From positions 11,592 to 75,591 of the forward strand of contig CAVVFV010000008.1 of NCBI GenBank assembly GCA_963747695.1: DNA of 64,000 bases, given 5' to 3'. Source of the DNA: Candidatus Falkowbacteria bacterium (GTDB lineage: Bacteria > Patescibacteriota > Patescibacteriia > Patescibacteriales > WJLG01). The notes below the pieces were generated by a model. It was not told the DNA's origin, did no database searches, and was given only the letters and a program-made list of their open reading frames with translations. The position numbers and the translations under genes are program-made. The stretch's first letter is position 1. Every line of letters begins with the position of its first letter. Shown one piece after another: positions 8,877 through 56,543 of this stretch.

Positions 8877-8894
8877 GGCATAAAGATTATTTCT

Positions 8895-11807: not shown

Positions 11808-11876
11808 TGCTAATTTTGCGAATGATGCGAATCTACGAATATTCGCGCGATTCGCATCATTAGAAAATTAGCATTA
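11805..11876. repeat. Palindromic element, TAATGCTAATTTT...GATGCGAAT subtype
   Basis: Arm TAATGCTAATTTTGCGAATGATGCGAATC pairs with GATTCGCATCATTAGAAAATTAGCATTA. It starts in the iscU stop codon, and the same arms occur at 52585-52689. Confidence 0.85.
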
Positions 11877-13233: not shown

Positions 13234-13283
13234 GTATTCGCGATATTCGCGGCATTCGCGCTCATTCGCGGATTAGCATCATG
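13234..13283. repeat. Solo arm (half element) of the CGAATAC/ATTCGC family
   Basis: GTATTCGCGATATTCGCGGCATTCGCGCTCATTCGCGGATTAGCATCAT resembles the right arms of full elements. No left arm is present. Confidence 0.65.
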
Positions 13284-14513
13284 TTTATGATATATTTCGA
13301 CCACAGCGCCACGACTCCGGCGGATAAGAAAGTCTTAAAAGCGATGGAGCCGTATTGGCGGGAAATTTTTGGCAATCCGTCTTCGATCCATGCATATGGG
13401 CAGCAGGCGGTTTTGGGCGTGGATCAGGCCCGGGCTAAAGCGGCCAAATTTTTCGGCTGCGAGAACGAGGAAATCATCTTCACTTCCGGCGCCACTGAGG
13501 CTAATAATCTGGCTTTGCGCGGGGTCATCAAGGCGTTAAAGGGCGAAGTTGCCAAGCCGCACATCATCACTTCCAAAGTCGAACATGACGCGATTATCGA
13601 ACCGTGCCGCGATCTCGAGCAGGAAGGGGTTGAAGTTACTTATTTGCCGGTTGATAAAACTGGAAGAATAAATCCGGAAGACGTGAAAAAGGCGATTAAG
13701 GAAAATACGGTCTTAGTTTCCATTATGGATGTGAATAGCGAGGTCGGCATCCGCGAGCCGATCCGCGAGATCGGCAAGCTGATCGAGAAAATCAATGAAG
13801 GAAGAATGAACGAGTGGCAGCGGACCGGGGCGGCCAAGAAATTGCCCAAGCCGCGGACGATTTATTTTCATACCGATGCCACGCAAGCGGTGAATTTTTT
13901 CGATTGCAACGTCGATAAGCTTCATGTTGACTTACTCTCAATGTCGGCGCATAAAATCTACGGACCCAAAGGCGTAGGACTTTTGTATATCAGAAAAGGC
14001 GTGTCAATCGCGCCGATTCAGCTGGGCGGTCATCATGAACGGAATATCCGTTCCGGAACCTTGAATGTCACCGGCATCGTCGGTCTGGGTGAAGCTTTGG
14101 CTTTAATCACTGAGACCGATCAGGAAAAAAATAATAAAAAAATAGCGGTCTTGCGCGATCGCCTGGTCGAGGGAGTAATAAAAAATATTCCCGATGTGGT
14201 TTTGAATACCGACCGCCCCAATGCGACTCCGGCCCATGCTCATTTTACGCTTCGTGGCGCGGAAGGTGAATCAGTCTTGATCTCACTTGATTTCGAAGGC
14301 ATAGCCGTGTCCACCGGTTCGGCTTGCGCTTCGAACAGTTTGAAATCATCGGAAGTTTTGGAGGCAATGGGCGTCTGTGAGGAAGATTCTCATTATTCGA
14401 TCCGCTTTACTCTGGGCAAGGATAATACCCGCGAAGAAGTTGATAAAGTCGTTAAAATTTTACCCGGGATAATTAAGAAGCTTAGAGAGATGAACCCGAT
14501 TTACGGAAAATAA
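13281..14513 (+). CDS. nifS: Cysteine desulfurase (NifS/IscS type)
   Basis: SAHKIYGPKG (PLP lysine) and TGSACAS (active-site Cys). The start may be the ATG at 13287. Confidence 0.9.
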   Translation: MFMIYFDHSATTPADKKVLKAMEPYWREIFGNPSSIHAYGQQAVLGVDQARAKAAKFFGCENEEIIFTSGATEANNLALRGVIKALKGEVAKPHIITSKVEHDAIIEPCRDLEQEGVEVTYLPVDKTGRINPEDVKKAIKENTVLVSIMDVNSEVGIREPIREIGKLIEKINEGRMNEWQRTGAAKKLPKPRTIYFHTDATQAVNFFDCNVDKLHVDLLSMSAHKIYGPKGVGLLYIRKGVSIAPIQLGGHHERNIRSGTLNVTGIVGLGEALALITETDQEKNNKKIAVLRDRLVEGVIKNIPDVVLNTDRPNATPAHAHFTLRGAEGESVLISLDFEGIAVSTGSACASNSLKSSEVLEAMGVCEEDSHYSIRFTLGKDNTREEVDKVVKILPGIIKKLREMNPIYGK

Positions 14514-14962
14514 CCAATATCAAATAACCAATATTTAAAAAAATAAAAAATATTAAAATAATTTAAAGCATGATTTATGATCTGGAGGGGAGAACTAAAT
14601 CATTTAGCAGTAATGTGCTGAATTTTTTGCAAGCCGTGCCGCGAAATGATTTTACCAGAAACATTATTTTACAATTGATCAGGTCGGCAACAAGTATTGG
14701 CGCAAATTATCATGAGGCGAATGGCGGCTGTTATAGGAAGGAATTTAAAAATAGAATTTCCATCTGCTTGAGAGAAACAAAAGAAACTAAATATTGGATA
14801 GAATTATTGGCTAAATGCAGGGGTGTTGAATTGGCGGCGTTAAGAAAATTGTGGAAAGAGGCTGCTGAATTTTCTCTAATTTTTGGCTAGATATATTCAA
14901 GTTTATAATATTAAAATATTTAGATATTTTTTTAAGTATTGGTTATTTGATATTGGATATTT
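14514..14962. repeat. Composite palindromic cassette (CCAATAT-word arms) enclosing a four-helix-bundle ORF
   Basis: Left arm CCAATATCAAATAACCAATATTTAAAAAAATA... (14514-14568) pairs with right arm ...TAAGTATTGGTTATTTGATATTGGATATTT (14901-14962). The cassette fills the nifS stop to GT4 start spacer exactly. Confidence 0.8.
14570..14890 (+). CDS. Four helix bundle protein (23S rRNA IVS protein / Avd-like family)
   Basis: RSATSIGANYHEANG and KETKYWIELL motifs. Length is 106 aa. Confidence 0.8.
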   Translation: MIYDLEGRTKSFSSNVLNFLQAVPRNDFTRNIILQLIRSATSIGANYHEANGGCYRKEFKNRISICLRETKETKYWIELLAKCRGVELAALRKLWKEAAEFSLIFG

Positions 14963-16093
14963 ATGAAGATCTTACTTGTAATAACGAAGGCCGTCGTGGG
15001 CGGGGCGCAGACTTCCGTATTGAATTTGGCGCGGGAAATGAAGCGGCGCGGTCATGAGGTCACGGTCGGGTTTGGCGATGGCGATTGGCTGCCGCTTGAA
15101 TTGGATAAAGCGAAAATCGCGTATTATCGTTTCCGTAATTTAAAGAGAACGCATAATCCCTTGGCCAATCTTTTTTTTATCGGCGAGATCGCCGGCTATT
15201 TGCGGCGCAAGGATTTTAGCGCGGTGCATTTCAATAGTTCCAATGCCTTGCCCGGCGCGATTGGCGCGAAATTGGCCGGTCGAAAAATTAGGACAATTTT
15301 CACTTTCCGGGGTATGTCGATGCTGGACGAGCATTACCGGACGAACCCGATCAAGAAGTTCGCTTATCGGTTATTTTTTAAATTCTGCCTGTTATTCGTG
15401 GACGCGCCGGTTTTCGTTTCCCGGGAAAATTGGGAAAAATTCGGCCAAGGCCAGCTAACCAAGCGAGGATTCTTGATTTACAATGGTTTGGATCCGGAAC
15501 AGGTGAATTTCGTTCCGCGGGCAGAGGCGATTAATTTTTTTTCGCAAAAGACCGGTCGTGATTTGGCGGGAAAATACCTCCTCGGCTCGATCGGCCGCCT
15601 GGATTATGCCAAGAATTACGAGTTCTTGATCAATATTTTCCCGAAAATTTTGAATATCCGGTCGGATGCCGCGCTAGCGATTATGGGCGAGGGAGCGGAG
15701 CGAGCGCAGTATGAAAATTTAATCCAGGCCAAAGGTTTGACGGAAAAAATATTTTTATTGGGCAACGTCGAGAATGGCGGCCGCTATCTTCGTGGGTTTG
15801 ATTTGTTCGTCCAGCCGTCGCGTTATGAAGGATTGTCAATCGCCTTGATCGAGGCCTTGTTTGCCGGCTCGCTTATTTTGACTAGCGACGTCGGCGGCAA
15901 TCGCGAGGTCGTCGGCGGCTCCAACGAAGAAATATACCGCCTGGACGATGAAGCGGAATTTCTCGCCAAATTCCAGGCTCTGCAGGATATCGATCTTTGG
16001 CCGAAGATAATCCACAATAACGCGGGTCAGGCGCTCAAATTCCGTCTCGCCGACACCGCCGACGGCTATGAGAAAATTTACCAAGAAAAATAA
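14963..16093 (+). CDS. Glycosyltransferase family 4 (GT-B)
   Basis: C-terminal EGLSIALIEALFAG (E-x7-E motif). Confidence 0.8.
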   Translation: MKILLVITKAVVGGAQTSVLNLAREMKRRGHEVTVGFGDGDWLPLELDKAKIAYYRFRNLKRTHNPLANLFFIGEIAGYLRRKDFSAVHFNSSNALPGAIGAKLAGRKIRTIFTFRGMSMLDEHYRTNPIKKFAYRLFFKFCLLFVDAPVFVSRENWEKFGQGQLTKRGFLIYNGLDPEQVNFVPRAEAINFFSQKTGRDLAGKYLLGSIGRLDYAKNYEFLINIFPKILNIRSDAALAIMGEGAERAQYENLIQAKGLTEKIFLLGNVENGGRYLRGFDLFVQPSRYEGLSIALIEALFAGSLILTSDVGGNREVVGGSNEEIYRLDDEAEFLAKFQALQDIDLWPKIIHNNAGQALKFRLADTADGYEKIYQEK

Positions 16094-32941: not shown

Positions 32942-32988
32942 TTCAGGAATTAATTTAATTAATATAGTCGGGAATAGACCCTCCCCGT

Positions 32989-33025
32989 CAGGCCGAGGCG
33001 GCCTGCCACCCCTCCCGAGGAGGGG
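32989..33025. repeat. Stand-alone GC-rich twin hairpin
   Basis: CAGGCCG-AGG-CGGCCTG followed by CCCCTCC-CGA-GGAGGGG. The same design forms the cores inside the elements at 36531, 48799, 53133 and 54294. Confidence 0.8.
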
Positions 33026-33032
33026 ACGAAAA

Positions 33033-33962: not shown

Positions 33963-33977
33963 ATAAATTTAGCGGCA

Positions 33978-34065
33978 AATATCCAATATCAAATAACTAA
34001 TATCAAAAAAATATTAAAATATTTAATTATTTTTTAAAATATTGGTTATTTGATCTTGGATATTT
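33978..34065. repeat. Intercistronic palindrome, CCAATAT-word family, 'empty'
   Basis: AAATATCCAATATCAAATAACTAATATC... pairs with ...ATATTGGTTATTTGATCTTGGATATTT. It lies between the gmd stop and the fcl start. Confidence 0.85.
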
Positions 34066-35103
34066 TTAACCGCCGGCACTTTCTTGCTTTAAATCCTTGA
34101 CACACATCTCCTTGATCAACTCGGTGAAAGATACTTGCGGTGCCCAGCCTAATTTGGTTTTGGCTTTGGTCGGGTCGCCGAGGAGGATGTCGACTTCGGT
34201 CGGGCGGAAATATTTAGGATCAATTTCGATAATTATTTTACCGGTTTTTTTATCCAGGCCTTTTTCGTTGACGCCTTGGCCTTGCCAGACAAGCTGGATG
34301 TCGAAGTGAGCGGCGGCTTTCTCGGCGAATTCGCGGACCGTGTGGGTTTCGCCGGTCGCCAAAAGATAATCATCCGGCGCTTCGGCTTGGAGCATTAGCC
34401 ACATACCGCGGACATAATCTTGGGCATGGCCCCAGTCGCGCTGGGCGTCGAGATTGCCCAAAAATAATTTTTGTTCTTTGCCTAATTTGATCCGGGCGAG
34501 TCCCCGAGTGATTTTGCGGGTGACGAAAGTTTCGCCGCGGCGGGGAGATTCATGATTGAATAAGATCCCGTTGACGGCAAACATATTGTAAGCCTCACGG
34601 TAATTTCTGGTGATCCAGTAAGCGAAAACTTTGGCTACTCCGTAAGGCGAGCGGGGATAGAAAGGCGAGGTTTCTTTGAGGGGAATTTCCGCGGCCTTGC
34701 CGAACATCTCGCTGGAAGAAGCTTGATAAAATTTGGTCTTAATCCTGGACTCGCGGATGGCATCAAGCAAGCGCAAGGCGCCGAGGCCGGTGACATCGGC
34801 GGTGTATTCCGGCATATCGAAAGAAACGCGGACATGGCTTTGCGCGCCCAGGTTATAAATTTCATCCGGCTGGATTTTCTCCAGCAGGCGGCTCAAGTTG
34901 CTCGAATCGGAAAGATCGCCGAAATGCAAGAATAATTTGACGCCATTGATGTGCGGATCAGTATAAAGATGGTCGATGCGGCCGGTATTGAAAGTGCTGG
35001 CGCGGCGGATCAAACCGTGGACTTCATACCCCTTTTCCAATAATAACTCCGCCAAATAGGAGCCGTCTTGTCCGGTAATGCCGGTGATCAGTGCCTTTTT
35101 CAT
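34066..35103 (-). CDS. gmd: GDP-mannose 4,6-dehydratase
   Basis: [23 protein letters not shown] and [10 protein letters not shown] motifs. Confidence 0.92.
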
Positions 35104-35107
35104 AATT

Positions 35108-35157
35108 TGATGCGAATGCCGCGAATTAGTCGCGAATGCCGCGAAAATCGCGAATAA
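35108..35157. repeat. Solo arm (half element) of the CGAATGC/ATTCGC family
   Basis: TGATGCGAATGCCGCGAATTAGTCGCGAATGCCGCGAAAATCGCGAATAA lies 4 nt upstream of the gmd start in gene orientation. Confidence 0.65.
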
Positions 35158-35165
35158 TATTTATT

Positions 35166-36524
35166 TTATCTGCCGGCTCGAGATAAAACCGTGGAAATCG
35201 TTTTTAAGATGATTGATAAGTCCAGATAGATCGAGCGGTTTTTTACATAATACAGATCGTACTGTAATTTTTTCATCGTATCGGCAAAAGAAGGCGAATG
35301 GTATTCCCCGGAAATTTGGTCGCAACCGGTGACGCCCGGTTTGACCAGCATCCGCTCGCGGTAAAAAGGGATTTGTTTTTCCAGCTCAGTGATCAATTCC
35401 GGCCGTTCGGGGCGCGGGCCGACAAAACTCATTTCGCCTCTGATAATATTGAGCACCTGGGGAATTTCGTCCAGGCGGGTTTTGCGCAAGAACGAACCGA
35501 AGCGGGTAATGCGGCTGTCATTGACCGCGGTCGGGGAGTGGTCGTTATTTTCGGTTTTCATCGTGCGGAATTTGATGATCCGGAAATTTTTTCCCCGTTC
35601 GCCGGTCCGCGTTTCCAGAAAAAATACCGGGCCGCGGCTTTCCAATTTGACGATCAAGCCGATGATCAGCCAGAAAATTAAGCTGACCAGGAAGATCAGG
35701 AGCGACAAGATAAGATCAGACGTCCGTTTGAACAGATCGAAGTCTCTCTTGTTGCCTTCGTTCAGATTTTCCAAAAACCACATCTTGTTGATTTCCTCCA
35801 GAGGGATTTTGCCGGCGATGTTTTCATAAAAATCAACCAAGTTGATAAAAGTGATTTTTAACGGCAGGCATTCGAAAAGCAAAGCGCGCAATTCCTGCGA
35901 ATCGGGCGCCGTGGCAAGTATGACATTATTGATTTTTCTTTTTTCGATCAAAGCCGGCAGGTCATTGAGATTGGAAAAGATCGGCGTGCCGTTCAATTCT
36001 TTGCTGTTTGTTTTTTCGTCCAGGATGAAAGACAAAGAAAAACCCAGCTGCGGCTTTTGTTTCAACTCGGCCGAGATTTCTTCAACCAAGTGATTTTGGC
36101 CGATGATCGCCAGATTGACGCGGGGCAGATATGATTTGAGCAGGGAATTCAGAGAGCGGCGCCAAATGATGAACAGGGCGGCGAAGACAACGATGAAAAT
36201 CGCCAAATTGGTTTTGGGAGTCAGTTTGTCGTGAGGGAAAAGATAAAAATAAACGATCGATAAAAGCGCCGCAATAATAAAACTTTGGCCGACTCGCTGA
36301 AAGAATTGAGCGTTGTTGACCGCTTGGCGCAGATCGTAAAGATTGGAAATGTAAAAAGCGATCAGCCAAAAAACAAAAACCACCAGGAATGATTCCCAGA
36401 GCTTTTGATAGGTTTCGGCGCCCGGCAAAGTCAGATAGCGGAGCCAGAGTGTCAGAAACAGGGCCAGCTGCATGACGATCAGATCGCCCAACAGGATAAG
36501 GAAATTTTTAAATCGATTGCTCAT
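35166..36524 (-). CDS. Polyprenyl-phosphate glycosyl-1-phosphate transferase (WbaP/exopolysaccharide initiating enzyme type)
   Basis: N-terminal TM block, then a bacterial sugar-transferase domain with KFRTM, DEIPQ and GEMSFVGPRP. Confidence 0.85.
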   Translation of the reverse strand: MSNRFKNFLILLGDLIVMQLALFLTLWLRYLTLPGAETYQKLWESFLVVFVFWLIAFYISNLYDLRQAVNNAQFFQRVGQSFIIAALLSIVYFYLFPHDKLTPKTNLAIFIVVFAALFIIWRRSLNSLLKSYLPRVNLAIIGQNHLVEEISAELKQKPQLGFSLSFILDEKTNSKELNGTPIFSNLNDLPALIEKRKINNVILATAPDSQELRALLFECLPLKITFINLVDFYENIAGKIPLEEINKMWFLENLNEGNKRDFDLFKRTSDLILSLLIFLVSLIFWLIIGLIVKLESRGPVFFLETRTGERGKNFRIIKFRTMKTENNDHSPTAVNDSRITRFGSFLRKTRLDEIPQVLNIIRGEMSFVGPRPERPELITELEKQIPFYRERMLVKPGVTGCDQISGEYHSPSFADTMKKLQYDLYYVKNRSIYLDLSIILKTISTVLSRAGR

Positions 36525-36530
36525 AAAAAA

Positions 36531-36678
36531 ATAATACGAATACTACGAATTTTATGCGAATACTACGAACACTGCGAACCGAATAACACACCCTGTCCGC
36601 GAGGCGCGGACACCCCTCTCGAGAGGGGAATAAAAATAGTTCGCGGTATTCGCGAAGAATTCGCGGTATTCGTATCAT
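36531..36678. repeat. Nested palindromic element: CGAATAC arms plus a GC-rich twin-hairpin core
   Basis: Arms ATAATACGAATACTACGAA... and ...TTCGCGGTATTCGTATCAT. The core at 36595-36628 is GTCCGCG-AGG-CGCGGAC plus CCCCTCTCGAGAGGGG. Confidence 0.85.
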
Positions 36679-36758
36679 GTCATGTAATACTTAAATTAGC
36701 AGAAAAAATCGCGAAAAGCAAGCTTGCCTAAACAAGGCGGGAATGATAAGATTTAGGC

Positions 36759-37814
36759 ATGGAAAAACGAAGTTTGGAAGAAAAAAAAGGCTGGCCGTTG
36801 GCGGGAAACGTCAAGATTACCGATTTTTTGGAAAAAAGCATCACCAACGGTAAAATAGTCAATACTTATATTTTTTTGGGCTTAAAGGACCTGGGCAAGA
36901 CCGCGGCGGCCGTTTATTTTGCCAAGAGTCTGCTCTGCCAGAAGCAGAAGCCGGGAATTTTTTCGTTGCCTTGCGGCAGCTGTTCGTCTTGCCGCCAAAT
37001 GCAGAATTCCGGCAAGGAAGAAAAGGGTTTTGAAACATTGCACGGCGATTTTCATTTAGTCAGAAAAGAAGAGGGTAAGAAAAATATTTCCATCGAGCAA
37101 ATCCGGGAATTCATCAGGATTTTAGAAATGAGTTCTTTTTCGAATTCCTATAAAGTCGGCATTATCAAGGACGCTGATGATCTTTCCGAGGGAGCGGCCA
37201 ATGCATTGCTAAAAACCCTGGAAGAACCGCGGCCGAAAGTCGTCGTGATTTTGACCGCTGCCCGCCTGGAAAAAATTCCCGCGACGATCGTTTCGCGCAG
37301 CCAGGTGCTGCATTTCTTGCCGGTGCCGGTTGCGACGATCTATGATTATCTGGTCAAGGATCTTGGTTGTCCGCGCGGGGAAGCCAAAAATATTTCGCGC
37401 TTGAGCCTGGGCCGGCCGGCGCTGGCGGCGAAATTTTTCGAAGACCGGGATTTTTATCAGAGTTATTTGGAAAAAACCGAAACCTTTTTGCAATTTTTTA
37501 AAAATAATTTGAACGATCGCCTGACCGCGGTCGGTGCGATCAGCGCCGCCGGGGATGAGGAAAGCAAAGCGGAGACCGCCCTGGGAATTTTAAACGTCTG
37601 GCAGGGGATCTTGAGAGATTTGATTTTGCTTAACTCCAATAATGGCGATTTGATCCAGCATGAGCCGTGGCGGGAAAAATTGGAAAAAATCTCCGGCGGA
37701 TTGAATGGCGGCAGTCTAAAAAAGATCAGCGAGTCGCTCGCGCTGGGCGAAAAATATGTCCGTGCCAATGTCAATCCGCGGCTGGTGCTGGAGAATATAG
37801 CCATTAATATATAA
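36759..37814 (+). CDS. holB: DNA polymerase III subunit delta'
   Basis: FLGLKDLGKT P-loop-like motif, CGSCSSC zinc module and LLKTLEEP. Confidence 0.8.
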   Translation: MEKRSLEEKKGWPLAGNVKITDFLEKSITNGKIVNTYIFLGLKDLGKTAAAVYFAKSLLCQKQKPGIFSLPCGSCSSCRQMQNSGKEEKGFETLHGDFHLVRKEEGKKNISIEQIREFIRILEMSSFSNSYKVGIIKDADDLSEGAANALLKTLEEPRPKVVVILTAARLEKIPATIVSRSQVLHFLPVPVATIYDYLVKDLGCPRGEAKNISRLSLGRPALAAKFFEDRDFYQSYLEKTETFLQFFKNNLNDRLTAVGAISAAGDEESKAETALGILNVWQGILRDLILLNSNNGDLIQHEPWREKLEKISGGLNGGSLKKISESLALGEKYVRANVNPRLVLENIAINI

Positions 37815-37899
37815 TTTTTAATTTTTGTAATTTTTAAATTTTTAAAGAATTTTTAATATTTAATTTTTAAAAATTATAAAATTAAAAATTAAAAATTAT
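37811..37899. repeat. Palindromic element, AATTTTTA-word family
   Basis: ATAATTTTTAATTTTTGTAATTTTTAAATTTTT... pairs with ...AAATTAAAAATTAAAAATTAT. Confidence 0.75.
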
Positions 37900-37906
37900 C
37901 AGCCAT

Positions 37907-39029: not shown

Positions 39030-39146
39030 ATGATGCGAATACTACAAATTTTACGCGAATACTACAAACAGATTTCACGAATTTACTTTTAATAATTCGA
39101 TAAATAGTTCGCGGTATTCGCGAAGAATTCGTAGTATTCGCATCAT
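39030..39146. repeat. 117-nt palindromic element, CGAATAC-word family
   Basis: ATGATGCGAATACTACAAAT ... ATTCGTAGTATTCGCATCAT. It is a close copy of 8760-8876. Confidence 0.9.
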
Positions 39147-39182
39147 GATTTCAACTTTAGATTAAATTAAAATAACAATATT

Positions 39183-45367: not shown

Positions 45368-45370
45368 AAA

Positions 45371-45541
45371 ATAATATCCAATAAAAAATAACCAATATCA
45401 TAAAAAATAATCAATAACCAATAACCAATATTTTTAAAAAATATTATAATAATTAAATATCTAAAATCTTGGCTGGTTATTTTAATTATTAAAATATTAA
45501 ATTATTTTTTAAAATATTTGTTATTTGATATTGGATATTAA
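45371..45541. repeat. Palindromic element, CCAATAT-word family (long)
   Basis: AATAATATCCAATAAAAAATAACCAATATC... pairs with ...TTGTTATTTGATATTGGATATTAAT. Confidence 0.8.
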
Positions 45542-45547
45542 TGATTT

Positions 45548-46438
45548 ATGGATCTTTCGGTCATCATCGTTTCCTGGAATGTCAAAGAGAAACTGAATAA
45601 ATGCCTGACGCATCTTGGTTTGAGCCAGACGAATTTTTCTTTTGAAGTTATCGTCGTTGATAACGGATCGCATGACGGTTCGGCCGAGATGGTGCGGGAT
45701 GAATTCGCTCAAGTCAAATTGATCGCCAACCATGGCAATCTGGGCTTCGCGCGCGCGGTCAATCAGGCTTTCCGGGAAAGCACGGGCGATTTCATTTTTT
45801 TACTCAACCCGGATAATTTTGTTTTTCCTTTGACGCTTGATAATCTGCTGCATTGGCTCCTCGCCAATCGTAAAGCCGCGATCGCCGGCTGCCGCTTGGT
45901 CGACCGGGAGAACAAAGATCTCAAGGGTCAGGTGCGAAGATTCCCCGGGATATTCAATCAGCTGGTGGTGGTCTTGAAGTGGCCTTATCTGTTTCCTAGA
46001 ATTTTGGATCGCTATCTTTGCGTCGGATTTGATTACGACCGGCCGGCCATCGTCGACAGCGTTCGCGGCAGCGCGATGATCATCCGCCGGGCGAAACTGG
46101 AGCAGGCTTTGTCTTATGAGCGGTGGCAGCGAGGAGAAATGCTTGATGAAAGATTTTTTGTTTGGTTTGAAGATGTCGATCTTTGCCGCACTTTCAAAGC
46201 GGCGGAGCTGGAAGTATGGTATACGCCGGCCGCCCGCTGTTTCGACCTGGTTGGGCAAAGCTTCTCGCAAATTCCCCGCCTCACGGCGCAAAAATATTTC
46301 CGCGATTCAATGTTGAAATATTTCAAGAAATGGAAACCCGCCTGGCAATATTGGATTTTGTGGCTGGTCTGGCCGGCGGGGATTACTTTGACGTTTATTT
46401 TCACGGCGCTAGGTTTTGAGAAGAAAGACAATAGCTGA
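45548..46438 (+). CDS. Glycosyltransferase family 2
   Basis: SVIIVSWN, VVDNGSHDGS, NLGFARA and FEDVDLC motifs. Confidence 0.8.
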   Translation: MDLSVIIVSWNVKEKLNKCLTHLGLSQTNFSFEVIVVDNGSHDGSAEMVRDEFAQVKLIANHGNLGFARAVNQAFRESTGDFIFLLNPDNFVFPLTLDNLLHWLLANRKAAIAGCRLVDRENKDLKGQVRRFPGIFNQLVVVLKWPYLFPRILDRYLCVGFDYDRPAIVDSVRGSAMIIRRAKLEQALSYERWQRGEMLDERFFVWFEDVDLCRTFKAAELEVWYTPAARCFDLVGQSFSQIPRLTAQKYFRDSMLKYFKKWKPAWQYWILWLVWPAGITLTFIFTALGFEKKDNS

Positions 46439-46443
46439 TTTTT

Positions 46444-46541
46444 AATATTAAATATCAAATAATTAATATCCAAAAAATAATATAATATTTTAATATTAAA
46501 ATATTTTTTTGAATATTGGATATTTGATATTGGATATTTTT
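46444..46541. repeat. Palindromic element, CCAATAT-word family
   Basis: AATATTAAATATCAAATAATTAATATCC... pairs with ...GAATATTGGATATTTGATATTGGATATTTT. Confidence 0.8.
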
Positions 46542-46552
46542 AAATTAATTAA

Positions 46553-47617
46553 ATGTCCAAAAAGGTCGGAATTATTTTAGTAAATTATAAAGATTACGCG
46601 CAGCGTTTCCTCGCCGATTGCCGCGATTCTTTGCGCGCGCAAAATTATTCGCGAGAAGAGTTTACGGTTTATCTCGTCGATAATGCTTCGAGCGATGAAT
46701 CGGAAAAATATCTCAAAGAAAATTATCCGGAAGCGACAATCGTTTCCCGGCCAGATGGGAATTATTCCGCGGCCAATAATGCCGGCATAAAGGCGGCAAC
46801 GTCCGACGGCGCGGAAGTTTTCGTCATTGCCAATATGGATATGGCCTTTGAAAAAAATTGGCTGACTGAGCTGATCAACGCGCTAGAGAGTGATGATAAA
46901 ATCGGCATCGCTCAGTCGAAAATTTTGCTTTACTCTCAAGGCAACGAAACTAAAAAAATAAATACTCTCGGCAATGCGATTAATTTTTTAGGTTTTGGTT
47001 TTACCACCGGCTACCAAGAAGCTGATCGGGAAATCGTCGGCCTGCCAGAGATCAGAGGCTATGCTTCGGGCAGCTCGTTCGCTGTCAAAAAAGCAGTATT
47101 GGACAAGATCGGCGGCTACAACGAAGAGTATTATATGTATCATGATGATCTGGAAATGGGCTGGAAAGCCAAGCTGGCGGGATATAAAATAGTCTTAGCT
47201 CCGAAATCCGTCTGTTATCACAAATATGAATTTTCCCGCAGCATCAAGATGGTTTATTATATGGAGCGCAACCGCCTGATCACCATTTTTTCTTTCTATG
47301 AATTGACTTCAATACTCGCGATACTTCCCGCCTTGATTATTATGGAATTGGGCCAATTGTTTTTTGCTTTAATCAAAGGCTGGTTGCCGGAAAAATTGCG
47401 GGCCGACGAATATTTTTTGCACGCCGAAAATTGGGACAAAATTATGGCCGCAAGAAAGCAGGTTAAGAATTTCCGCGCCAAAAAAGATCGCGAGATCGTC
47501 GATGATTTTTCCGGAGAAATCTTGTTCCAGGAAATCGACAACCCAATTCTTAAATATCTTGCCAACCCTTTCTTCAAGTGGTATTGGAATTTGGCCAAGA
47601 GAGCGATTAAGGGATAA
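46553..47617 (+). CDS. Glycosyltransferase family 2
   Basis: GIILVNY, LVDNASSD, NNAG and HDDLEMG motifs. Confidence 0.8.
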   Translation: MSKKVGIILVNYKDYAQRFLADCRDSLRAQNYSREEFTVYLVDNASSDESEKYLKENYPEATIVSRPDGNYSAANNAGIKAATSDGAEVFVIANMDMAFEKNWLTELINALESDDKIGIAQSKILLYSQGNETKKINTLGNAINFLGFGFTTGYQEADREIVGLPEIRGYASGSSFAVKKAVLDKIGGYNEEYYMYHDDLEMGWKAKLAGYKIVLAPKSVCYHKYEFSRSIKMVYYMERNRLITIFSFYELTSILAILPALIIMELGQLFFALIKGWLPEKLRADEYFLHAENWDKIMAARKQVKNFRAKKDREIVDDFSGEILFQEIDNPILKYLANPFFKWYWNLAKRAIKG

Positions 47618-47846: not shown

Positions 47847-47891
47847 AGGTTTGACTAAAATAAACCCAGGAAGTATGCTTGAAACATCATT

Positions 47892-47984
47892 ATTAATATC
47901 CAATATCAAATAACCAATAATTTAAAAAATAATAAAATATTTAAATATTGAATTATTTTTTTGATATTGGTTATTGGATATTCA
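47892..47984. repeat. Palindromic element, CCAATAT-word family
   Basis: ATTAATATCCAATATCAAATAACCAATAAT... pairs with ...TTGATATTGGTTATTGGATATTCAG. Confidence 0.8.
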
Positions 47985-47990
47985 GATAAC

Positions 47991-48770
47991 ATGGACGTCT
48001 CCGTCATCATCGTCAATTATCAAAGCCAGGATAAAGTCCTAAAATGCCTCGACGCTCTGTTGGACGCGGATTGGGGAGATTTGCAGTACGAAATAATCGT
48101 CGTCGATAATAATTCCGGCGATGACCTGACGCGTGTTAAGGAGATTTTTCCGGAAGTGAAAATCATCCAGAGCGAGAAAAATCTGGGCATGGGCGGCGGC
48201 AACAATCTGGGCGCCAAGAATTCCACGGGAAAATATATTTTGATTTTAAATCCTGATACCGCGGTTAAAGCTGATGCGATCCTTAAGCTTTATCAACACT
48301 TGCGGGAAAATCAAACGGCCGGAATCGTCGGGCCGAAACTTTTAAATCCGGACGGCAGCTTGCAATATTCCTGTCTGCGCTTTCCGAAAATCTATACGCC
48401 GATTTTGCGCCGGACATTTTTCGGCGAATTGGCGCCGCAACACCTGAATGATTTTTTAATGAAAGATTTTGATCACTCGGCGATCAAGAGCGTCGACTGG
48501 CTGATGGGTTCCTGCTTCCTGATCCGCCGCGAAATCATGGAAAAAGACGGCCATATTTTCGATGAGAAATATTTTATGTATTTTGAGGATACCGATCTTT
48601 GTCGGCGGATGAAGGAAAAACATAATTATGAAGTTGTTTATCATCCGGAAGCGGTCGTAATTCATGATCATGCTCGGGCGAGTGCGGATCAGCCCTGGTT
48701 TGTCGCGCCGTTCGTCGATCCGCTCGCGAGAGAACATATCAAATCATGGCTGAGATATTTCATCGGTTAA
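47991..48770 (+). CDS. Glycosyltransferase family 2
   Basis: I prefer the ATG at 47991 (MDVSVIIVNY) because the track's TTG lies inside the repeat. Motifs are VVDNNSGD, NLGMGGG and FEDTDLC. Confidence 0.8.
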   Translation: MDVSVIIVNYQSQDKVLKCLDALLDADWGDLQYEIIVVDNNSGDDLTRVKEIFPEVKIIQSEKNLGMGGGNNLGAKNSTGKYILILNPDTAVKADAILKLYQHLRENQTAGIVGPKLLNPDGSLQYSCLRFPKIYTPILRRTFFGELAPQHLNDFLMKDFDHSAIKSVDWLMGSCFLIRREIMEKDGHIFDEKYFMYFEDTDLCRRMKEKHNYEVVYHPEAVVIHDHARASADQPWFVAPFVDPLAREHIKSWLRYFIG

Positions 48771-48798
48771 ATTATTCAAAGATAAAAGGCGTGCGTAT

Positions 48799-48931
48799 AT
48801 CATACGAATACTACGAATAACCCACCCCGCCACCGCGGCGGTGGCACCCCTCCCAAGAGGGGAATCGCGAATACCGCAAACTCCGCGAACCAAATTAAAA
48901 TTTGTTAAATTATTCGTTGTATTCGCATCAT
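48799..48931. repeat. Rearranged CGAATAC-family element with a GC twin-hairpin core
   Basis: ATCATACGAATACTACGAATAA, then the core at 48829-48862 (GCCACCG-CGG-CGGTGGC plus CCCCTC-CCAA-GAGGGG), then ...GTTGTATTCGCATCAT. Confidence 0.8.
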
Positions 48932-48939
48932 GTAATTTT

Positions 48940-52584: not shown

Positions 52585-52689
52585 TAATGCTAATTTTCGA
52601 ATGATGCGAATCTGCGAATATTCGTAAAATTGCATTACTATTTATAAGTTACAATTCGTAAATTCGCATCATTCGCGAAATTAGCATTA
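52585..52689. repeat. Palindromic element, TAATGCTAATTTT...GATGCGAAT subtype
   Basis: TAATGCTAATTTTCGAATGATGCGAAT pairs with ATTCGCATCATTCGCGAAATTAGCATTA. The arms match those at 11805-11876. Confidence 0.85.
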
Positions 52690-52876
52690 GAATTATATTA
52701 TAGCATAGCCTAAGCAAGGCATTATTTCAACTTCGATATGTTTACAGTCAGTTTTGCTTATAGTGTCAAGATTGCTTTTTATTTTGCTAAGTGGTAGGCT
52801 AAAAACAGCTAAGCTAATAATAGCTATACTTTATCGAAGGGGTTATCAATCTATTGATAAAAACTTCACTAAATCT

Positions 52877-53044
52877 ATGGAATGGTTAAAGAAACTTTTC
52901 GGAGGAAAAAAACAGGACATGCCGAAAGAGGCGCCGATGAACGCGCCGAAAGCTCCCGAGATGCCGATGGGCGGAATGCCGGAGAACAAGCCGATGAACA
53001 ATGCAGGAATGGCCGATCAGCCGGGTAGCGAAGACATGAAATAA
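52877..53044 (+). CDS. Small Met/Pro-rich hypothetical protein (55 aa)
   Basis: ATG at 52877 (MEWLKKLFGG...), followed by a terminator. It is low-complexity, so the call is uncertain. Confidence 0.35.
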   Translation: MEWLKKLFGGKKQDMPKEAPMNAPKAPEMPMGGMPENKPMNNAGMADQPGSEDMK

Positions 53045-53132: not shown

Positions 53133-53280
53133 ATAATGCGAATACAACGAATTGTACGCGAATACTACGAACCCGCTAACCGAATAACACACCCCGTCCG
53201 CGAGGCGCGGCCACCCCTCTCGAGAGGGGAATTAAAAATGGTTCGCGGTATTCGCGCATAATTCGTAGTATTCGCATCAT
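53133..53280. repeat. Nested palindromic element: CGAATAC arms plus a GC twin-hairpin core
   Basis: It is collinear with 36531-36678. The core at 53196-53229 is GTCCGCG-AGG-CGCGGCC plus CCCCTCTCGAGAGGGG. Confidence 0.85.
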
Positions 53281-53284
53281 ATTA

Positions 53285-53295
53285 TGTGCTATAAT
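53285..53295 (+). promoter_or_regulatory. Extended -10 promoter TGTGCTATAAT, probable leaderless tatD transcript
   Basis: The -10 box ends 7 nt before the tatD ATG at 53303. Confidence 0.5.
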
Positions 53296-53302
53296 AAAAT
53301 GC

Positions 53303-54154
53303 ATGAAGCTAATCGACACTCACTCCCACGTCAATTTTAAGAAATTCTCCGCCGACGCCGATCAAGTTATTCTCAATGCCTTGAATAACGAGACCGGGAT
53401 GATTATTGTCGGCGCTGATTACAAAACTTCCAAGCGGGCGCTGGATCTGGCTAATAAATATGAAAAGGGCGTTTATGCCTCGGTCGGTTTGCATCCGGTG
53501 CATCTGGAAGATATCACCGAAGCCGGCGAGGACGGCCGGGAAGTGGTCCGCGTGCGCGCCGAAGAATTCATTTATGATAATTATGAGAAGCTGGCCGAGT
53601 TCGAGAAGACCGTGGCCATCGGCGAGATCGGCCTGGATTATTATCATCTGAAACTTTCGCCGGACCTGGAAAATTCTAAAAAAAAGCAGAGAGAAGTTTT
53701 CGTCAAACAGCTTTTGCTCGCCCGCAATTTTGATCTGCCGGCGATCATCCATTGCCGCGTGGCGCACGACGATCTGCTGGCCACTTTGAAAAAATTCCGC
53801 GAAGACTATAAAGAAAAAATTCCTTTGGACAAACCTTGGGGGGTGATTCATTGTTTTTCCGGCGACGAAAATCTGGCCTGGGAATATTTCCGTCTCGGTT
53901 TTATGATCTCCTTTACCGGCATCATCACTTTCAGCCAGCAATGGGACAGCCTGATCCGCAAGATGCCGCTCGATAAATTCATGGTGGAAACCGATTGTCC
54001 GTTTATGACGCCGGAACCTTTTCGGGGGAAGAGGAATGAGCCGGCCTTGGTCGCTTACGTGGCCGAACGGATCGCTGCCATCCGCGGCGTCGAACCGGAC
54101 CGCATTGCCGAAGTCTCCACCGAAAATGCCAGAAGGTTTTTTAACATCTCATAG
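53303..54154 (+). CDS. tatD: TatD-family metal-dependent hydrolase/DNase
   Basis: LIDTHSH, GEIGLDY, IIHCR, IHCFSG and ETDCPF motifs. Confidence 0.88.
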   Translation: MKLIDTHSHVNFKKFSADADQVILNALNNETGMIIVGADYKTSKRALDLANKYEKGVYASVGLHPVHLEDITEAGEDGREVVRVRAEEFIYDNYEKLAEFEKTVAIGEIGLDYYHLKLSPDLENSKKKQREVFVKQLLLARNFDLPAIIHCRVAHDDLLATLKKFREDYKEKIPLDKPWGVIHCFSGDENLAWEYFRLGFMISFTGIITFSQQWDSLIRKMPLDKFMVETDCPFMTPEPFRGKRNEPALVAYVAERIAAIRGVEPDRIAEVSTENARRFFNIS

Positions 54155-54213: not shown

Positions 54214-54241
54214 TTGACAACACTGGAAGAAGTGATAAAAT
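54214..54241 (+). promoter_or_regulatory. groESL promoter (TTGACA-16 nt-TGaTAAAAT)
   Basis: -35 TTGACA at 54214-54219, TG at 54233-54234 and -10 TAAAAT at 54236-54241. Confidence 0.65.
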
Positions 54242-54252
54242 AAGGTATGCTT

Positions 54253-54279
54253 TTAGCACTTCAAGCGTTGGAGTGCTAA
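54253..54279 (+). promoter_or_regulatory. CIRCE operator (HrcA binding site)
   Basis: TTAGCACTT-N9-GAGTGCTAA against the consensus TTAGCACTC-N9-GAGTGCTAA. Confidence 0.9.
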
Positions 54280-54293
54280 CCAATTATTTAATA

Positions 54294-54477
54294 TGATGCT
54301 AATCCGCAAATGAGCGCGAATGCCGCGAAAACCGCGAATAACACACCCCGTCAAGCCGAGGCGGCTTGCCACCCCTCTCCCACGCATCGCTTCGCTTTGC
54401 GGGGCAAGCGAGAAGGGAATTATTTAATTATTCGCATTTTTCGCGGCATTCGCGACTTTTTCGCAGCATTCGCATCA
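54294..54477. repeat. Nested palindromic element in the groES 5' leader (CGAATGC arms, GC core, extra insert)
   Basis: Arms TGATGCTAATCCGCAAATGAGCGCGAATGCCGCGAAAACCGCGAATAA and TTATTCGCATTTTTCGCGGCATTCGCGACTTTTTCGCAGCATTCGCATCA. Core is CAAGCCG-AGG-CGGCTTG (54352-54368) plus CCCCTCTC-[30 nt]-GAGAAGGG (54372-54417). Confidence 0.85.
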
Positions 54478-54485
54478 GAATTTTT

Positions 54486-54773
54486 ATGACAATTAAACCT
54501 CTTCACGACAATGTGGTCATTAAACCGGTGGTCGCGGAAAAGACCACCAAAGCCGGAATCGTTTTACCGGACACGGTCGATAAAGGCAAACCCGAGCAGG
54601 GCACGGTAATGGCGGTCGGTACGGGAAAAATTTTGGACAACGGCCAGCTGGCCAGGATGTCGGTCAAGGTCGGGGATAAAGTGATGTTCAAAAAATACGC
54701 CGCGGACGAGATCGAAATCGGCGGCGAGAAAATGATTTTAATTTCCGAGTCGGATATTTTAGCAATATTATAA
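54486..54773 (+). CDS. groES: Co-chaperonin GroES
   Basis: I prefer the ATG at 54486 (MTIKPLHDNVVIKPV...). The track's extension reads through the repeat. Confidence 0.92.
   Translation: MTIKPLHDNVVIKPVVAEKTTKAGIVLPDTVDKGKPEQGTVMAVGTGKILDNGQLARMSVKVGDKVMFKKYAADEIEIGGEKMILISESDILAIL

Positions 54774-56543
<1,770 letters not shown>

What the first reader, a model, noticed from the sequence alone, without database searches (positions are those of the whole stretch)
36595..36628. GC-rich twin hairpin nested inside AT-rich palindromes shows compensatory base changes between copies
Five copies share the layout hairpin 1, then ACC/CA, then hairpin 2, then GAAT.

Hairpin 1 stems:
- GTCCGCG/CGCGGAC (36595-36611)
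- GTCCGCG/CGCGGCC (53196-53212)
- GCCACCG/CGGTGGC (48829-48845)
- CAGGCCG/CGGCCTG (32989-33005)
- CAAGCCG/CGGCTTG (54352-54368)

The loop is AGG or CGG. The G-to-A change in CAGGCCG versus CAAGCCG is matched by a C-to-T change in the partner strand, and the GCCACCG copy is fully re-paired.

Hairpin 2 variants:
- CCCCTCTC/GAGAGGGG (36613-36628 and 53214-53229)
- CCCCTC-CCAA-GAGGGG (48847-48862)
- CCCCTCC-CGA-GGAGGGG (33009-33025)
- CCCCTCTC-[30-nt insert]-GAGAAGGG (54372-54417)

Covariation that preserves pairing is the classical signature of a selected RNA or DNA structure. Four copies are nested in the loop of CGAATAC-family palindromes, and one stands alone between gtrA and fcl. The nesting goes three levels deep at 54294-54477.
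Basis: seen in the sequence. Interest (0 to 1): 0.78.

Follow-up and report, generated by a model that had tools for sequence, protein, structure and literature searches.

The report
Mobile twin-hairpin repeat linked to DUF559 nuclease
The GC-rich twin hairpin is real, but it looks like a small mobile DNA repeat rather than a regulatory RNA: the same unit occurs across many bacterial phyla and phages, where inverted copies bracket a small DUF559 endonuclease gene, a pairing I found no description of.

Summary
All five copies exist at the stated coordinates, all on the + strand. A covariance model finds exactly these five in the window.

The unit is about 47 nt: (A)ACCACCCCG, then hairpin 1, then CACCCC fused to hairpin 2 (CCCCTC(C)-N3-5-(G)GAGGGG), then AAT. 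It belongs to a very large family. Pattern scans found it in 40 phage contigs and in at least 120 genome loci from many phyla.

Across 155-226 distinct copies, hairpin 1 has free sequence and length but stays 83-93% Watson-Crick paired, using all four pair types. Hairpin 2 and the C-rich boxes are nearly invariant. G·T and A·C mismatches are equally rare (25 v 25), which argues for a DNA-level palindrome rather than an RNA.

The units form the inverted terminal repeats of a 430-650 bp cassette encoding a DUF559 (Vsr-like) endonuclease. This holds in both directions: 14 of 120 motif-selected loci, and at least 74 of 80 protein-selected loci. The cassette often sits in-frame inside restriction-modification genes.

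Close Patescibacteria relatives have empty orthologous sites for copies C and E. Copy E is inserted exactly at the dyad of a CGAATAC palindrome.

No DUF559 gene lies in the window. There was no Rfam match and I found no publication. The window copies are best read as orphan, probably trans-mobilised, repeat units.

The parts
36584..36633 (+). Unit A, the finding itself. It comprises the 5' box AACACACCCTG, hairpin 1 at 36595-36611 (GTCCGCG-AGG-CGCGGAC), the CACCCC box fused to hairpin 2 at 36613-36628, and AAT.
   Evidence: Sequence. CM hit of 65.7 bits, E 7.7e-15. RNA fold -23.9 kcal/mol, z -4.6.
53185..53234 (+). Unit B. It is 94% identical to A. Hairpin 1 is at 53196-53212, with a T x C mismatch at the second pair. 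Hairpin 2 is at 53214-53229.
   Evidence: repeat family D10. CM hit of 69.2 bits.
48818..48867 (+). Unit C. Hairpin 1 is at 48829-48845 (GCCACCG-CGG-CGGTGGC) and hairpin 2 at 48847-48862. It is inserted after CGAAT, between two modules of the left arm of a CGAATAC palindrome.
   Evidence: CM hit of 67 bits. The orthologous site in relative L243 lacks it: a 43-nt gap, with 'TAT' in its place.
32976..33030 (+). Unit D, which stands alone between a GtrA-like gene and an epimerase gene, both on the - strand. Hairpin 1 is at 32989-33005 and hairpin 2 at 33009-33025. It ends GACG rather than GAAT.
   Evidence: CM hit of 37 bits, E 1.4e-7. Flanking genes from Pfam.
54340..54420 (+). Unit E. Hairpin 1 is at 54352-54368. 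Hairpin 2 is at 54372-54417 and is interrupted in its loop by a further 30-nt hairpin-forming insert at 54380-54409.
   Evidence: CM hit of 18 bits over the 5' part. An 87-nt gap in relative L244, placed exactly at the palindrome dyad. L245 12520-12615 carries a unit with the same 30-nt insert at a different locus.
36531..36685 (.). Host AT-rich CGAATAC-family palindrome, carrying unit A at its apex.
   Evidence: families D5, D7, D8.
53133..53287 (.). Host CGAATAC-family palindrome carrying unit B at its apex. It lies between a terminator and the TGCTATAAT box just upstream of the TatD gene.
48801..48932 (.). Host CGAATAC-family palindrome carrying unit C. Its right arm has lost one module relative to L243.
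54294..54477 (.). Host palindrome (GCGAATGCCGCGAA subfamily) carrying unit E at its dyad. It lies between the CIRCE operator (54253-54279) and the groES start codon (54486).
39030..39153 (.). Paralogous 'empty' CGAATAC palindrome with no unit, used as an in-window empty-site comparison. Others are at 304-420 and 8760-8883.

Best explanation
**What the copies are.** The five twin hairpins are orphan copies of a roughly 47-nt modular DNA repeat.

**Where the repeat normally sits.** In its complete form, two inverted copies of the repeat are the terminal inverted repeats of a 430-650 bp cassette. The layout is ATTCCCCTCC...(unit, reversed)...DUF559 ORF...(unit, forward)...GGAGGGGAAT. The cassette encodes a Vsr-like PD-(D/E)XK endonuclease of the DUF559 family.

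**What the unit does.** It works at the DNA level as a mobile palindromic element.
- The two C-rich boxes and hairpin 2 are the sequence-specific part.
- Hairpin 1 is a structure-only module whose sequence drifts but whose pairing is kept.

**How the window copies arose.** They are insertions into pre-existing AT-rich palindromes, at or near the dyad, always directly after CGAAT in this genome. One more sits in a plain intergenic spacer.

**Which steps are shown.**
- The family exists and is very widespread.
- Hairpin 1 covaries.
- The link between the unit and this DUF559 subfamily holds in both directions and is subfamily-specific.
- The unit is present or absent at orthologous sites in close relatives.

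**Which steps are inferred.**
- The DUF559 nuclease, encoded elsewhere in the genome or supplied by an incoming element, recognises extruded hairpins or cruciforms. It nicks, and this drives copying of units and cassettes in trans, much as RAYT does for REPs or a homing endonuclease does for its gene.
- Single-stranded hairpin tips are preferred entry points, which would explain the nesting.
For: **1. The family is real and widespread.**
- The pattern CACCCCTCNNNNGAGGGGAAT gave 63 matches in 40 phage contigs, nearly all with the upstream box and a hairpin 1.

**2. The cassette link holds in both directions.**
- The most-shared ORF cluster among motif-selected loci is DUF559 (15 loci; Pfam PF04480, E 3.6e-29).
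- tblastn finds the gene in 14 loci, immediately flanked by units.
- In the reverse test, 80 metagenome loci were chosen by protein similarity only. At least 74 have a hairpin-2 core within 250 bp, and the dominant layout is '< gene >'.
- The covariance model finds 247 units in those 215 kb.
- The link is specific to this subfamily. Of 10 viral DUF559 relatives, only the closest (54% identity) has flanking units.
- Catalytic-type residues are invariant (D61, E72, D74, H78).

**3. The structure is a DNA-level one.**
- Hairpin 1 is 83-93% Watson-Crick paired at depths 3-7 and uses all four pair types.
- Six of its 7 pairs show double changes.
- G·T equals A·C (25 v 25 of 920 cells).

**4. There is evidence of mobility.**
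- Unit C is a 43-nt indel relative to L243, and unit E an 87-nt indel at the exact dyad relative to L244.
- Relatives carry units at other loci.
- The E-type variant recurs at a different locus in L245.

**5. Units and cassettes occur in-frame inside ORFs.** Hosts include HsdR and Eco57I/Type ISP-like genes, with recurrent insertion sites.

**6. Independent literature fits.** A published survey lists DUF559 proteins as enriched among predicted inversion targets, which fits flanking inverted repeats (PMC9881135).
Against: - No DUF559 gene lies in the 64-kb window or in about 94 kb from relatives, so trans-mobilisation in this genome is unproven.
- No target-site duplication or defined cleavage site was found.
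- The junctions at the empty sites are not perfectly clean. Four nt are replaced at C, and there are about 9 extra nt at E.
- No experiment links DUF559 to these repeats. The nuclease could instead be a passenger, or a homing enzyme that merely targets the repeat.
- Part of the copy set was collected with patterns that fix the boxes, so box conservation is partly circular. The protein-selected set is free of this.
- The all-plus orientation in the window does not generalise: 76 v 60 relative to GC skew (p = 0.2).
Confidence: 0.68

Rival explanations
1. The unit is a strand-specific structured RNA made from the + strand: a cis-regulatory element, a small RNA, an mRNA stabiliser or a terminator. 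The hairpins would be selected because the RNA must fold.
For: - The RNA folds are stable.
- Hairpin 1 covaries strongly.
- In the window, 4 of 5 units lie upstream of + strand genes. Unit E would sit in the groES 5' UTR, downstream of CIRCE.
Against: - There is no Rfam match at gathering or permissive thresholds.
- Orientation relative to flanking genes is mixed: 24 same/same against 14 opposite/opposite. Unit D is antisense to both of its neighbours.
- G·U is not tolerated more than A·C.
- No U-tract follows either hairpin on either strand.
- Units occur in-frame inside long ORFs and as inverted pairs flanking a gene.
- Close relatives lack the unit at the same promoter regions.
Confidence: 0.08
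2. The causality runs the other way. The unit, or a head-to-head pair of units, is the recognition or homing site of a free-standing DUF559 homing endonuclease. The units themselves spread by host recombination, replication slippage or an unrelated mechanism, and the nuclease gene simply homes into them.
For: - The gene sits between inverted copies with sharp outer boundaries and no target-site duplication.
- Head-to-head doublets without a gene exist (10 cases).
- The cassette recurs at the same position of divergent HsdR genes.
- Vsr-fold homing endonucleases are known: I-Bth0305I (PMC3239194) and fractured genes (PMC2677866).
Against: - It leaves unexplained how solo units reach new sites such as palindrome dyads.
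- It leaves unexplained why the unit sequence is conserved across phyla wherever the nuclease subfamily is found.
- Most units are solo.
Confidence: 0.15
3. The unit is a REP/BIME or IS200/IS605-derived palindromic element (PATE), mobilised by an HUH Y1 transposase (RAYT/TnpA) acting on single-stranded hairpins.
For: - The units are GC-rich hairpins with conserved 5' flanking nucleotides.
- They occur as singlets and as inverted doublets.
- All five window copies share one orientation on the strand with positive GC skew, which is the lagging-strand template.
Against: - The gene bracketed by inverted units is DUF559, not a Y1 transposase.
- No other shared ORF cluster was found in 160 loci.
- There is no GTAG-type 5' tetranucleotide. 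The two hairpins differ from each other, and the sequence is conserved across phyla rather than being species-specific.
- There is no orientation bias relative to GC skew elsewhere.
Confidence: 0.04
4. The window copies are inert relics. They would be units inherited with duplicated palindromes, no longer mobile and without function in this genome.
For: - A and B are 94% identical and share palindrome arms, so at least one pair could have arisen by duplication of the whole composite.
- No nuclease gene is nearby.
- D and E are degenerate: D has lost the AAT, and E has an interrupted hairpin 2 and GAGAAGGG.
Against: - Presence or absence differs between relatives with 93-95% identical GroEL.
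- Four different hairpin 1 sequences all remain paired.
- The E-type variant is found at another locus in L245.

These points indicate recent activity in the lineage.
Confidence: 0.05

Closest known systems
REP/BIME (REPIN) elements and their RAYT transposases (REPtrons); from my own knowledge of Nunvar 2010, Bertels & Rainey 2011 and Ton-Hoang 2012
   Same: - Short GC-rich palindromic units are dispersed in intergenic DNA as singlets and inverted doublets.
- One small nuclease gene is bracketed by two inverted units.
- The hairpin stem is maintained while its sequence drifts.
   Different: - The bracketed gene here is a PD-(D/E)XK Vsr-like DUF559 nuclease, not an HUH Y1 enzyme.
- The unit has two different hairpins plus two C-rich boxes, and no GTAG.
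- The boxes are conserved across phyla and phages rather than being species-specific.
- Units and cassette insert in-frame in ORFs.
Mitochondrial GC clusters and double-hairpin elements (yeast GC42, Allomyces DHEs; PMC4478555)
   Same: - They are about 40-nt GC-rich palindromic elements embedded in AT-rich DNA.
- They show sporadic presence or absence between close relatives.
- They merge and nest to form new elements, and are transferred horizontally.
- Their mobilising enzyme is unknown or only suspected.
   Different: - They are organellar and eukaryotic, with different sequences.
- They have no consistent partner gene, whereas here a specific nuclease gene is bracketed by the units.
Free-standing Vsr-fold (EDxHD) homing endonucleases, such as I-Bth0305I and the 'fractured gene' endonucleases (PMC3239194, PMC2677866)
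   Same: - A small Vsr-like nuclease gene behaves as a selfish insertion inside conserved genes, including phage genes.
- It recurs at site-specific positions.
   Different: - Those sit in group I introns or between split-intein halves and have no dispersed twin-hairpin repeats.
- The present cassette has about 47-nt structured inverted repeats and leaves hundreds of orphan units.
Rickettsia palindromic elements and classical MITEs (Correia, RUP, BOX); from my own knowledge
   Same: - They are short, non-coding and hairpin-forming.
- They insert in intergenic regions and, for RPEs, in-frame within ORFs.
- They have a modular architecture, as in BOX elements.
   Different: - No target-site duplication is seen here.
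- A solo unit is a single end rather than a TIR pair.
- The partner enzyme is not a DDE transposase.

Membership tests
Any Rfam 15 RNA family | A covariance-model match at the gathering score, or at least a suggestive E-value | tested here: not met
   There were 0 hits at gathering over the window. Nothing relevant appeared at E<=10 on 36480-36760. Nothing appeared at E<=0.1 on six unit-rich loci.
DUF559-cassette terminal repeat (the family defined here) | 5' box (A)AC(C/A)CACCCCG, then a paired hairpin 1, then CACCCC fused to hairpin 2 CCCCTC(C)-loop-(G)GAGGGG, then AAT | tested here: met
   All five window copies are hit by model R1 (18-69 bits). D deviates at the AAT, and E carries a 30-nt insert in the hairpin 2 loop.
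DUF559-cassette terminal repeat (the family defined here) | A DUF559 subfamily gene is present in the same genome | not testable with these tools
   There is none in the 64-kb window (tblastn) and none in the relatives' loci. The rest of the 331,635-bp contig and of the genome could not be read.
REP/BIME-RAYT | The units bracket a Y1 HUH (RAYT) gene | tested here: not met
   The bracketed gene is DUF559 (PF04480). No other recurrent neighbour was found among 160 loci.
REP/BIME-RAYT | A conserved GT(A/G)G tetranucleotide 5' of a single imperfect palindrome | tested here: not met
   The 5' box is (A)ACCA-CCCCG (position weights). The unit has two distinct hairpins.
IS200/IS605 PATE | Similar subterminal hairpins at both ends, insertion 3' of a fixed tetra- or pentanucleotide, and a lagging-strand orientation bias | tested here: not met
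   Hairpins 1 and 2 are unrelated in sequence. GAAT precedes the unit only in this window: AAT in that register occurs in 5% of 370 copies elsewhere. There is no bias relative to GC skew (76 v 60).
MITE | Terminal inverted repeats plus a target-site duplication, with no ORF | tested here: inconclusive
   Head-to-head and tail-to-tail doublets exist. No target-site duplication was found at 21 cassette boundaries, nor around units.
Intrinsic (Rho-independent) terminator | A GC-rich hairpin followed directly by a U-tract | tested here: not met
   On the + strand hairpin 2 is followed by AAT(A/T)AAAA. On the - strand hairpin 1 is followed by (A)CGGGGTGTGTTATT. Neither is a T-run.
DUF559 / Vsr-like PD-(D/E)XK nucleases (for the partner protein) | A Pfam PF04480 match above cut-off, conserved acidic/His catalytic positions, and a solved homologue | tested here: met
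   PF04480 matches with E 3.6e-29 against a cut-off of 20.6 bits. D61, E72, D74 and H78 are invariant. PDB 3HRL matches at E 3e-23. Nuclease activity itself was not tested.

The most novel reading that the evidence does not exclude
The twin-hairpin unit and its DUF559 gene together form a previously undescribed class of cross-phylum selfish element.

It would be a REPtron-like system driven by a Vsr-fold nuclease instead of an HUH transposase. It would move between phyla on phages and insert into hairpin tips and palindrome dyads. It would also insert in-frame into restriction-modification genes, with the units translated as Pro/Gly-rich linkers. It would seed genomes, including tiny CPR genomes, with orphan units that can then be mobilised in trans.
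Probability: 0.4. Interest if true: 0.85.

Novelty: new variant of a known kind. Interest (0 to 1): 0.68.

Why it matters
- DUF559 is one of the commonest 'endonuclease-like' domains of unknown function. This subfamily alone has more than 7,000 90%-identity clusters. A specific, testable DNA partner would give it a function.
- A nuclease-plus-repeat system conserved from Bacteroidota to cyanobacteria, Firmicutes, CPR bacteria and phages would be a new route of horizontal DNA flow.
- It would also be a source of in-frame domain insertions in defence genes.
- Practically, the unit explains assembly breaks. Many cassette contigs are only 0.7-2 kb long.
- It explains spurious 'programmed inversion' calls around DUF559 genes.
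- It accounts for GC-rich islands in AT-rich CPR intergenic palindromes that could otherwise be mistaken for riboswitch-like RNAs.

Tried and rejected
- **Rfam.** I scanned at gathering and at permissive thresholds and found nothing.
- **Cultured phages.** blastn of a consensus unit against INPHARED gave only a chance 21-nt hit.
- **Literature.**
  - Searches with sequence strings returned only unrelated primer hits.
  - Searches for DUF559, COG2852 and PF04480 found no paper on these repeats.
  - The only indirect link is the enrichment of DUF559 among predicted inversion targets.
- **GAAT as a general target or target-site duplication.** Rejected. It holds for the window (5 of 5) but not for 370 copies elsewhere.
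- **Replication-strand bias.** All five window units are on the G-rich strand, but there is no bias across other genomes (p = 0.2).
- **A DUF559 remnant next to copy C.** The only tblastn signal (48615-48779, E = 0.03) overlaps a glycosyltransferase gene on the other strand, so I treat it as chance.
- **Polymorphism in the same strain.** The Logan contigs from ERR11748453 are 100% identical to the window and break at the repeats.
- **An orthologous empty site for copy B.** Relatives carry different palindrome families, or none, at that spacer, so no clean comparison was possible.
- **Shared neighbour genes other than DUF559.** The only other recurrent clusters were generic ones (histidine kinases, ABC ATPases) or phage structural proteins.
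Full report
**1. The observation**

- CACCCCTC occurs five times on the + strand, always inside a copy. Its reverse complement never occurs.
- A covariance model (R1), run over the window with filters off, returns exactly these five as full-length hits, all on the + strand, at 69, 67, 66, 37 and 18 bits.
- The stems, the loops, the compensatory G>A / C>T change and the 30-nt insert in hairpin 2 of the 54352 copy are as described.
- DNA folding of 54290-54480 (-49.6 kcal/mol, z -5.5) and 48790-48935 (-32.2 kcal/mol, z -6.0) reproduces the nested architecture.

There are two small corrections.
- The 32989 copy ends GGGGACG rather than GAAT.
- The 48829 copy lies between repeat modules of the left arm, inside the outer arms of its palindrome, rather than at the apex.

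The flanking genes are as follows:
- copy D: a GtrA-like gene and an NAD-epimerase next to gmd;
- copy A: a sugar transferase and holB;
- copy C: a GT2 glycosyltransferase and a nucleotidyl transferase;
- copy B: murA and TatD;
- copy E: TatD and groES.

**2. The motif is one member of a very large family**

*Phage contigs.* A scan of viral contigs with only the hairpin-2 part (CACCCCTCNNNNGAGGGGAAT) gave 63 matches in 40 loci.
- Almost every match has the same upstream architecture, (A)ACCACCCCG followed by a hairpin of arbitrary sequence and then CACCCC.
- These contigs are genuine phages. They encode terminase, prohead protease, tail sheath, tape-measure and baseplate proteins.

The loci come from Chryseobacterium, Flavobacterium, Pedobacter, Oscillospiraceae, Planctomycetota, Verrucomicrobiales, cyanobacteria, Chloroflexota, Nitrospira, Ignavibacteria, Deinococcales, Patescibacteria and others.

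*Unit edges.* Position weights place the edges at (A)ACCA|CCCCG on the 5' side and GAGGGG|AAT(T) on the 3' side.

*Arrangement.* Units occur mostly solo. They also occur as tail-to-tail pairs, head-to-head pairs and tandems.

*Known families.* Rfam has no matching family. Cultured-phage records have no match.

**3. Structure test**

I anchored hairpin 1 between the two boxes and counted pairs from the outside in, using 155 distinct sequences.
- Pairs are 83-93% Watson-Crick at depths 3-7, and all four pair types are used.
- Swapping right arms between copies gives only 46 ± 2%. Sliding the partner by one position gives 27-43% at depths 2-7.
- A T x C mismatch at the second position is itself conserved, occurring in 45% of copies.

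I then ran the model on a set chosen independently of the motif: units found in 80 loci picked only by protein similarity.
- Six of 7 hairpin-1 pairs show changes on both sides.
- The covariation score is 0.188 against 0.050 in shuffles (0 of 500 reach it), and is higher than in every slid control.
- Hairpin 2 is 99.6% paired but essentially invariant, so it is conserved as sequence rather than demonstrably as structure.

Over 920 stem cells from 226 distinct copies, there are 25 G·T/T·G cells and 25 A·C/C·A cells. An RNA read from one strand should tolerate G·U but not A·C. This symmetry points instead to a palindrome maintained in DNA, on both strands or as duplex.

**4. What it belongs to**

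*From motif to gene.* I clustered all ORFs in the 160 motif-selected loci. The cluster shared by most loci (15) is a protein of roughly 125-150 aa. It is DUF559, PF04480, with E 3.6e-29. Its nearest solved structure is 3HRL. tblastn places the gene in 14 of the 120 genome loci, each time directly flanked by units.

*From gene to motif.* I took 80 metagenome loci by DUF559 similarity alone.
- At least 74 have a hairpin-2 core within 250 bp of the gene.
- The commonest layout is an inverted unit just upstream and a forward unit just downstream, with the GGGGAAT ends facing outward.
- The model finds 247 units in these 215 kb.

*Cassette boundaries.* They are sharp, ATTCCCCTCC...GGAGGGGAAT, and the cassette is 433-647 bp long in the 21 cassettes measured. 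There is no target-site duplication.

*Specificity.* Among 10 DUF559 relatives in phage contigs, only the closest (54% identity) has flanking units. Those at 26-47% identity have none.

*The protein.* It is about 55-65% identical across phyla. D61, E72, D74 and H78 are invariant. The subfamily has more than 7,000 90%-identity clusters. Their sources name them only 'DUF559 / endonuclease domain-containing / very-short-patch-repair endonuclease'.

*In-frame insertion.* Cassettes and units are frequently in-frame inside larger ORFs.
- One example is a 1303-aa HsdR (L130). Others are Eco57I/Type ISP-like enzymes (L054, L081).
- In these ORFs the units are read through as TTPxxGHPSKEGN in the forward direction or NSPPLEGCPKDGVV in the reverse direction.
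- The same HsdR position (...LRATG|) is occupied in four divergent genes.
- A published survey lists DUF559 proteins among the annotations most enriched in predicted inversion targets (odds ratio 14; PMC9881135). That is what flanking inverted repeats would produce.

**5. Evidence of insertion in this lineage**

*The organism.* GroEL places the window in a Patescibacteria (CPR) bacterium. The closest relatives are 93-95% identical, and Falkowbacteria are about 73-75% identical. I fetched four syntenic loci from relatives.

*Copy C.* L243 has the same CGAATAC palindrome downstream of the GT2 gene but lacks the unit. The difference is a 43-nt gap, with TAT in its place.

*Copy E.* L244 has the same CIRCE-palindrome-groES arrangement but no unit. 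The difference is an 87-nt gap exactly at the dyad, CGAATAA|TATTCG. L243 also has an empty palindrome there.

*Copy B.* Relatives carry other palindrome families, or none, at that spacer.

*Units elsewhere in the relatives.* L243 and L247 each carry one upstream of the GT2 gene, and L060 has three in 8 kb. L245 carries a unit with the same 30-nt hairpin-2 insert as copy E, but downstream of groEL.

*In-window comparison.* Palindromes at 304-420, 8760-8883 and 39030-39153 are empty paralogues.

The palindromes therefore came first, and the twin hairpin is a later, discrete insertion with rapid turnover. In this genome all five units follow GAAT. Elsewhere this is not the rule. I read it as a local preference, or as microhomology with the unit's own GAAT end, and not as a target-site duplication.

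**6. Mechanism**

*Shown.*
- The unit is a mobile-type indel.
- It is the terminal repeat of a DUF559 cassette.
- It has a structure-only module (hairpin 1) and a sequence-specific module (the boxes and hairpin 2).
- Nothing about it is strand-specific in the way an RNA element would be.

*Inferred.*
- The DUF559 nuclease recognises the boxes and hairpin 2 on extruded hairpins or cruciforms and nicks. Repair or copy-choice then spreads cassettes and orphan units.
- Hairpin tips and palindrome dyads are favoured entry points. This would explain unit-in-palindrome nesting and hairpin-in-hairpin-2 nesting. It would also explain the nested hairpin 1 variants seen in L019 and L076.

*Not shown.* No nuclease gene is in the window, so action in trans, or past action, has to be assumed.

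*The main rival within this framework.* The nuclease may be a homing enzyme that targets unit pairs, while the units spread by other means.

*Less likely readings.* A cis-regulatory RNA, a REP/RAYT or IS200/IS605 derivative, and inert relics are all less likely, for the reasons given under rival explanations.

**7. Comparison and novelty**

In organisation, the closest system is REP/BIME with RAYT: dispersed palindromic units plus one nuclease gene bracketed by inverted units. The membership tests fail, however. The enzyme has a different fold, there is no GTAG, and the unit has two unlike hairpins.

In form and behaviour it recalls mitochondrial GC clusters and double-hairpin elements (PMC4478555). 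In enzyme fold it recalls the Vsr-like homing endonucleases (PMC3239194, PMC2677866).

I found no description of this repeat or of its link to DUF559 in Rfam or in the searchable literature. That literature is incomplete.

I rate it a new variant of a known kind. Its 'selected structure' inference is partly supported, and its implicit RNA reading is not.

**Caveats**
- The viral and genome copy sets were collected with patterns that fix the boxes. Conservation of the boxes is independently supported only by the protein-selected set.
- The model-based alignment leans towards the model's structure. My anchored counts do not depend on it.
- Gene calls in foreign loci are crude longest-ORF calls.

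Noticed in passing
window 304-420, 8760-8883, 11815-11865, 13235-13285, 35104-35160, 39030-39153, 52590-52690 (plus the four hosts of the units): The window has a family of long AT-rich palindromes built from roughly 10-nt periodic modules (GCGAATAC-TA-CGAAT...), sitting in intergenic spacers between a terminator and the next promoter. Close relatives have palindromes at the same spacers built from different modules: CAATGTAACAAT in L243, L245 and L247, and AAATGCTAAATG in L244 and L247. L243 and L244 also share the CGAATAC family. The repeat word is therefore lineage-specific while the position is conserved. Their function is unknown.
   Followed up: partly
window 14504-14564, 14906-14992, 33964-34095, 45368-45570, 46438-46569, 47889-48013; and 37795-37900, 54767-54891: There are two further intergenic repeat or palindrome families in the same genome: a CCAATAT/ATATTGG family and an AATTTTTAA family (repeat finder families D1-D4, D6 and D2).
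   Followed up: no
window 54214-54279 and 54486: A sigma-70-like promoter (TTGACA ... TAAAAT) is followed by a canonical CIRCE operator (TTAGCACTT-N9-GAGTGCTAA, 54253-54279). The 184-nt palindrome with unit E lies between CIRCE and the groES start codon, so it should be part of the groESL 5' UTR. Relative L245 has no palindrome there.
   Followed up: partly
window 53286-53305; L243 5893-5913: An extended -10 box (TGCTATAAT) ends only about 8 nt before the TatD start codon, both here and in relatives. This suggests a leaderless mRNA.
   Followed up: no
window 52875-53044 region; L243 5536-5703, L244 7029-7190, L245 7434-7592, L247 4118-4291: A small conserved ORF (about 52-57 aa, beginning MEWLKKLFGGKK...) with its own terminator lies between murA and TatD in all relatives. 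It has no Pfam hit on record.
   Followed up: no
L130 1010-4918; L054 2508-4166; L081 711-5713: The DUF559 cassette with its flanking units is read through in-frame inside HsdR and Eco57I/Type ISP-like restriction-modification genes. L081 carries several units and partial duplications inside two adjacent R-M ORFs. PF18135 (Type ISP C-terminal domain) co-occurs with DUF559 in some database proteins.
   Followed up: partly
L205 1880-2177; L206 1911-2123; L130 2529-2617: There are head-to-tail tandem arrays of up to six units with a 42-nt period directly downstream of the DUF559 gene. The GGGGAAT end of one unit abuts the ACCACCCC start of the next.
   Followed up: no
L081 (units near 1912-2151 and 4776-5219): A short unit variant lacks hairpin 1 (ACCACCCC-TG-CCCCTCC-AAA-GGAGGGGAAT, translated TTPAPPKEGN). 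It pairs tail-to-tail with full units.
   Followed up: no
Short-read assemblies break at these repeats. The Logan contigs of the source strain end at 54338 and start at 54384, which is the position of unit E. Many DUF559 cassette contigs are only 0.7-2 kb long.
   Followed up: partly
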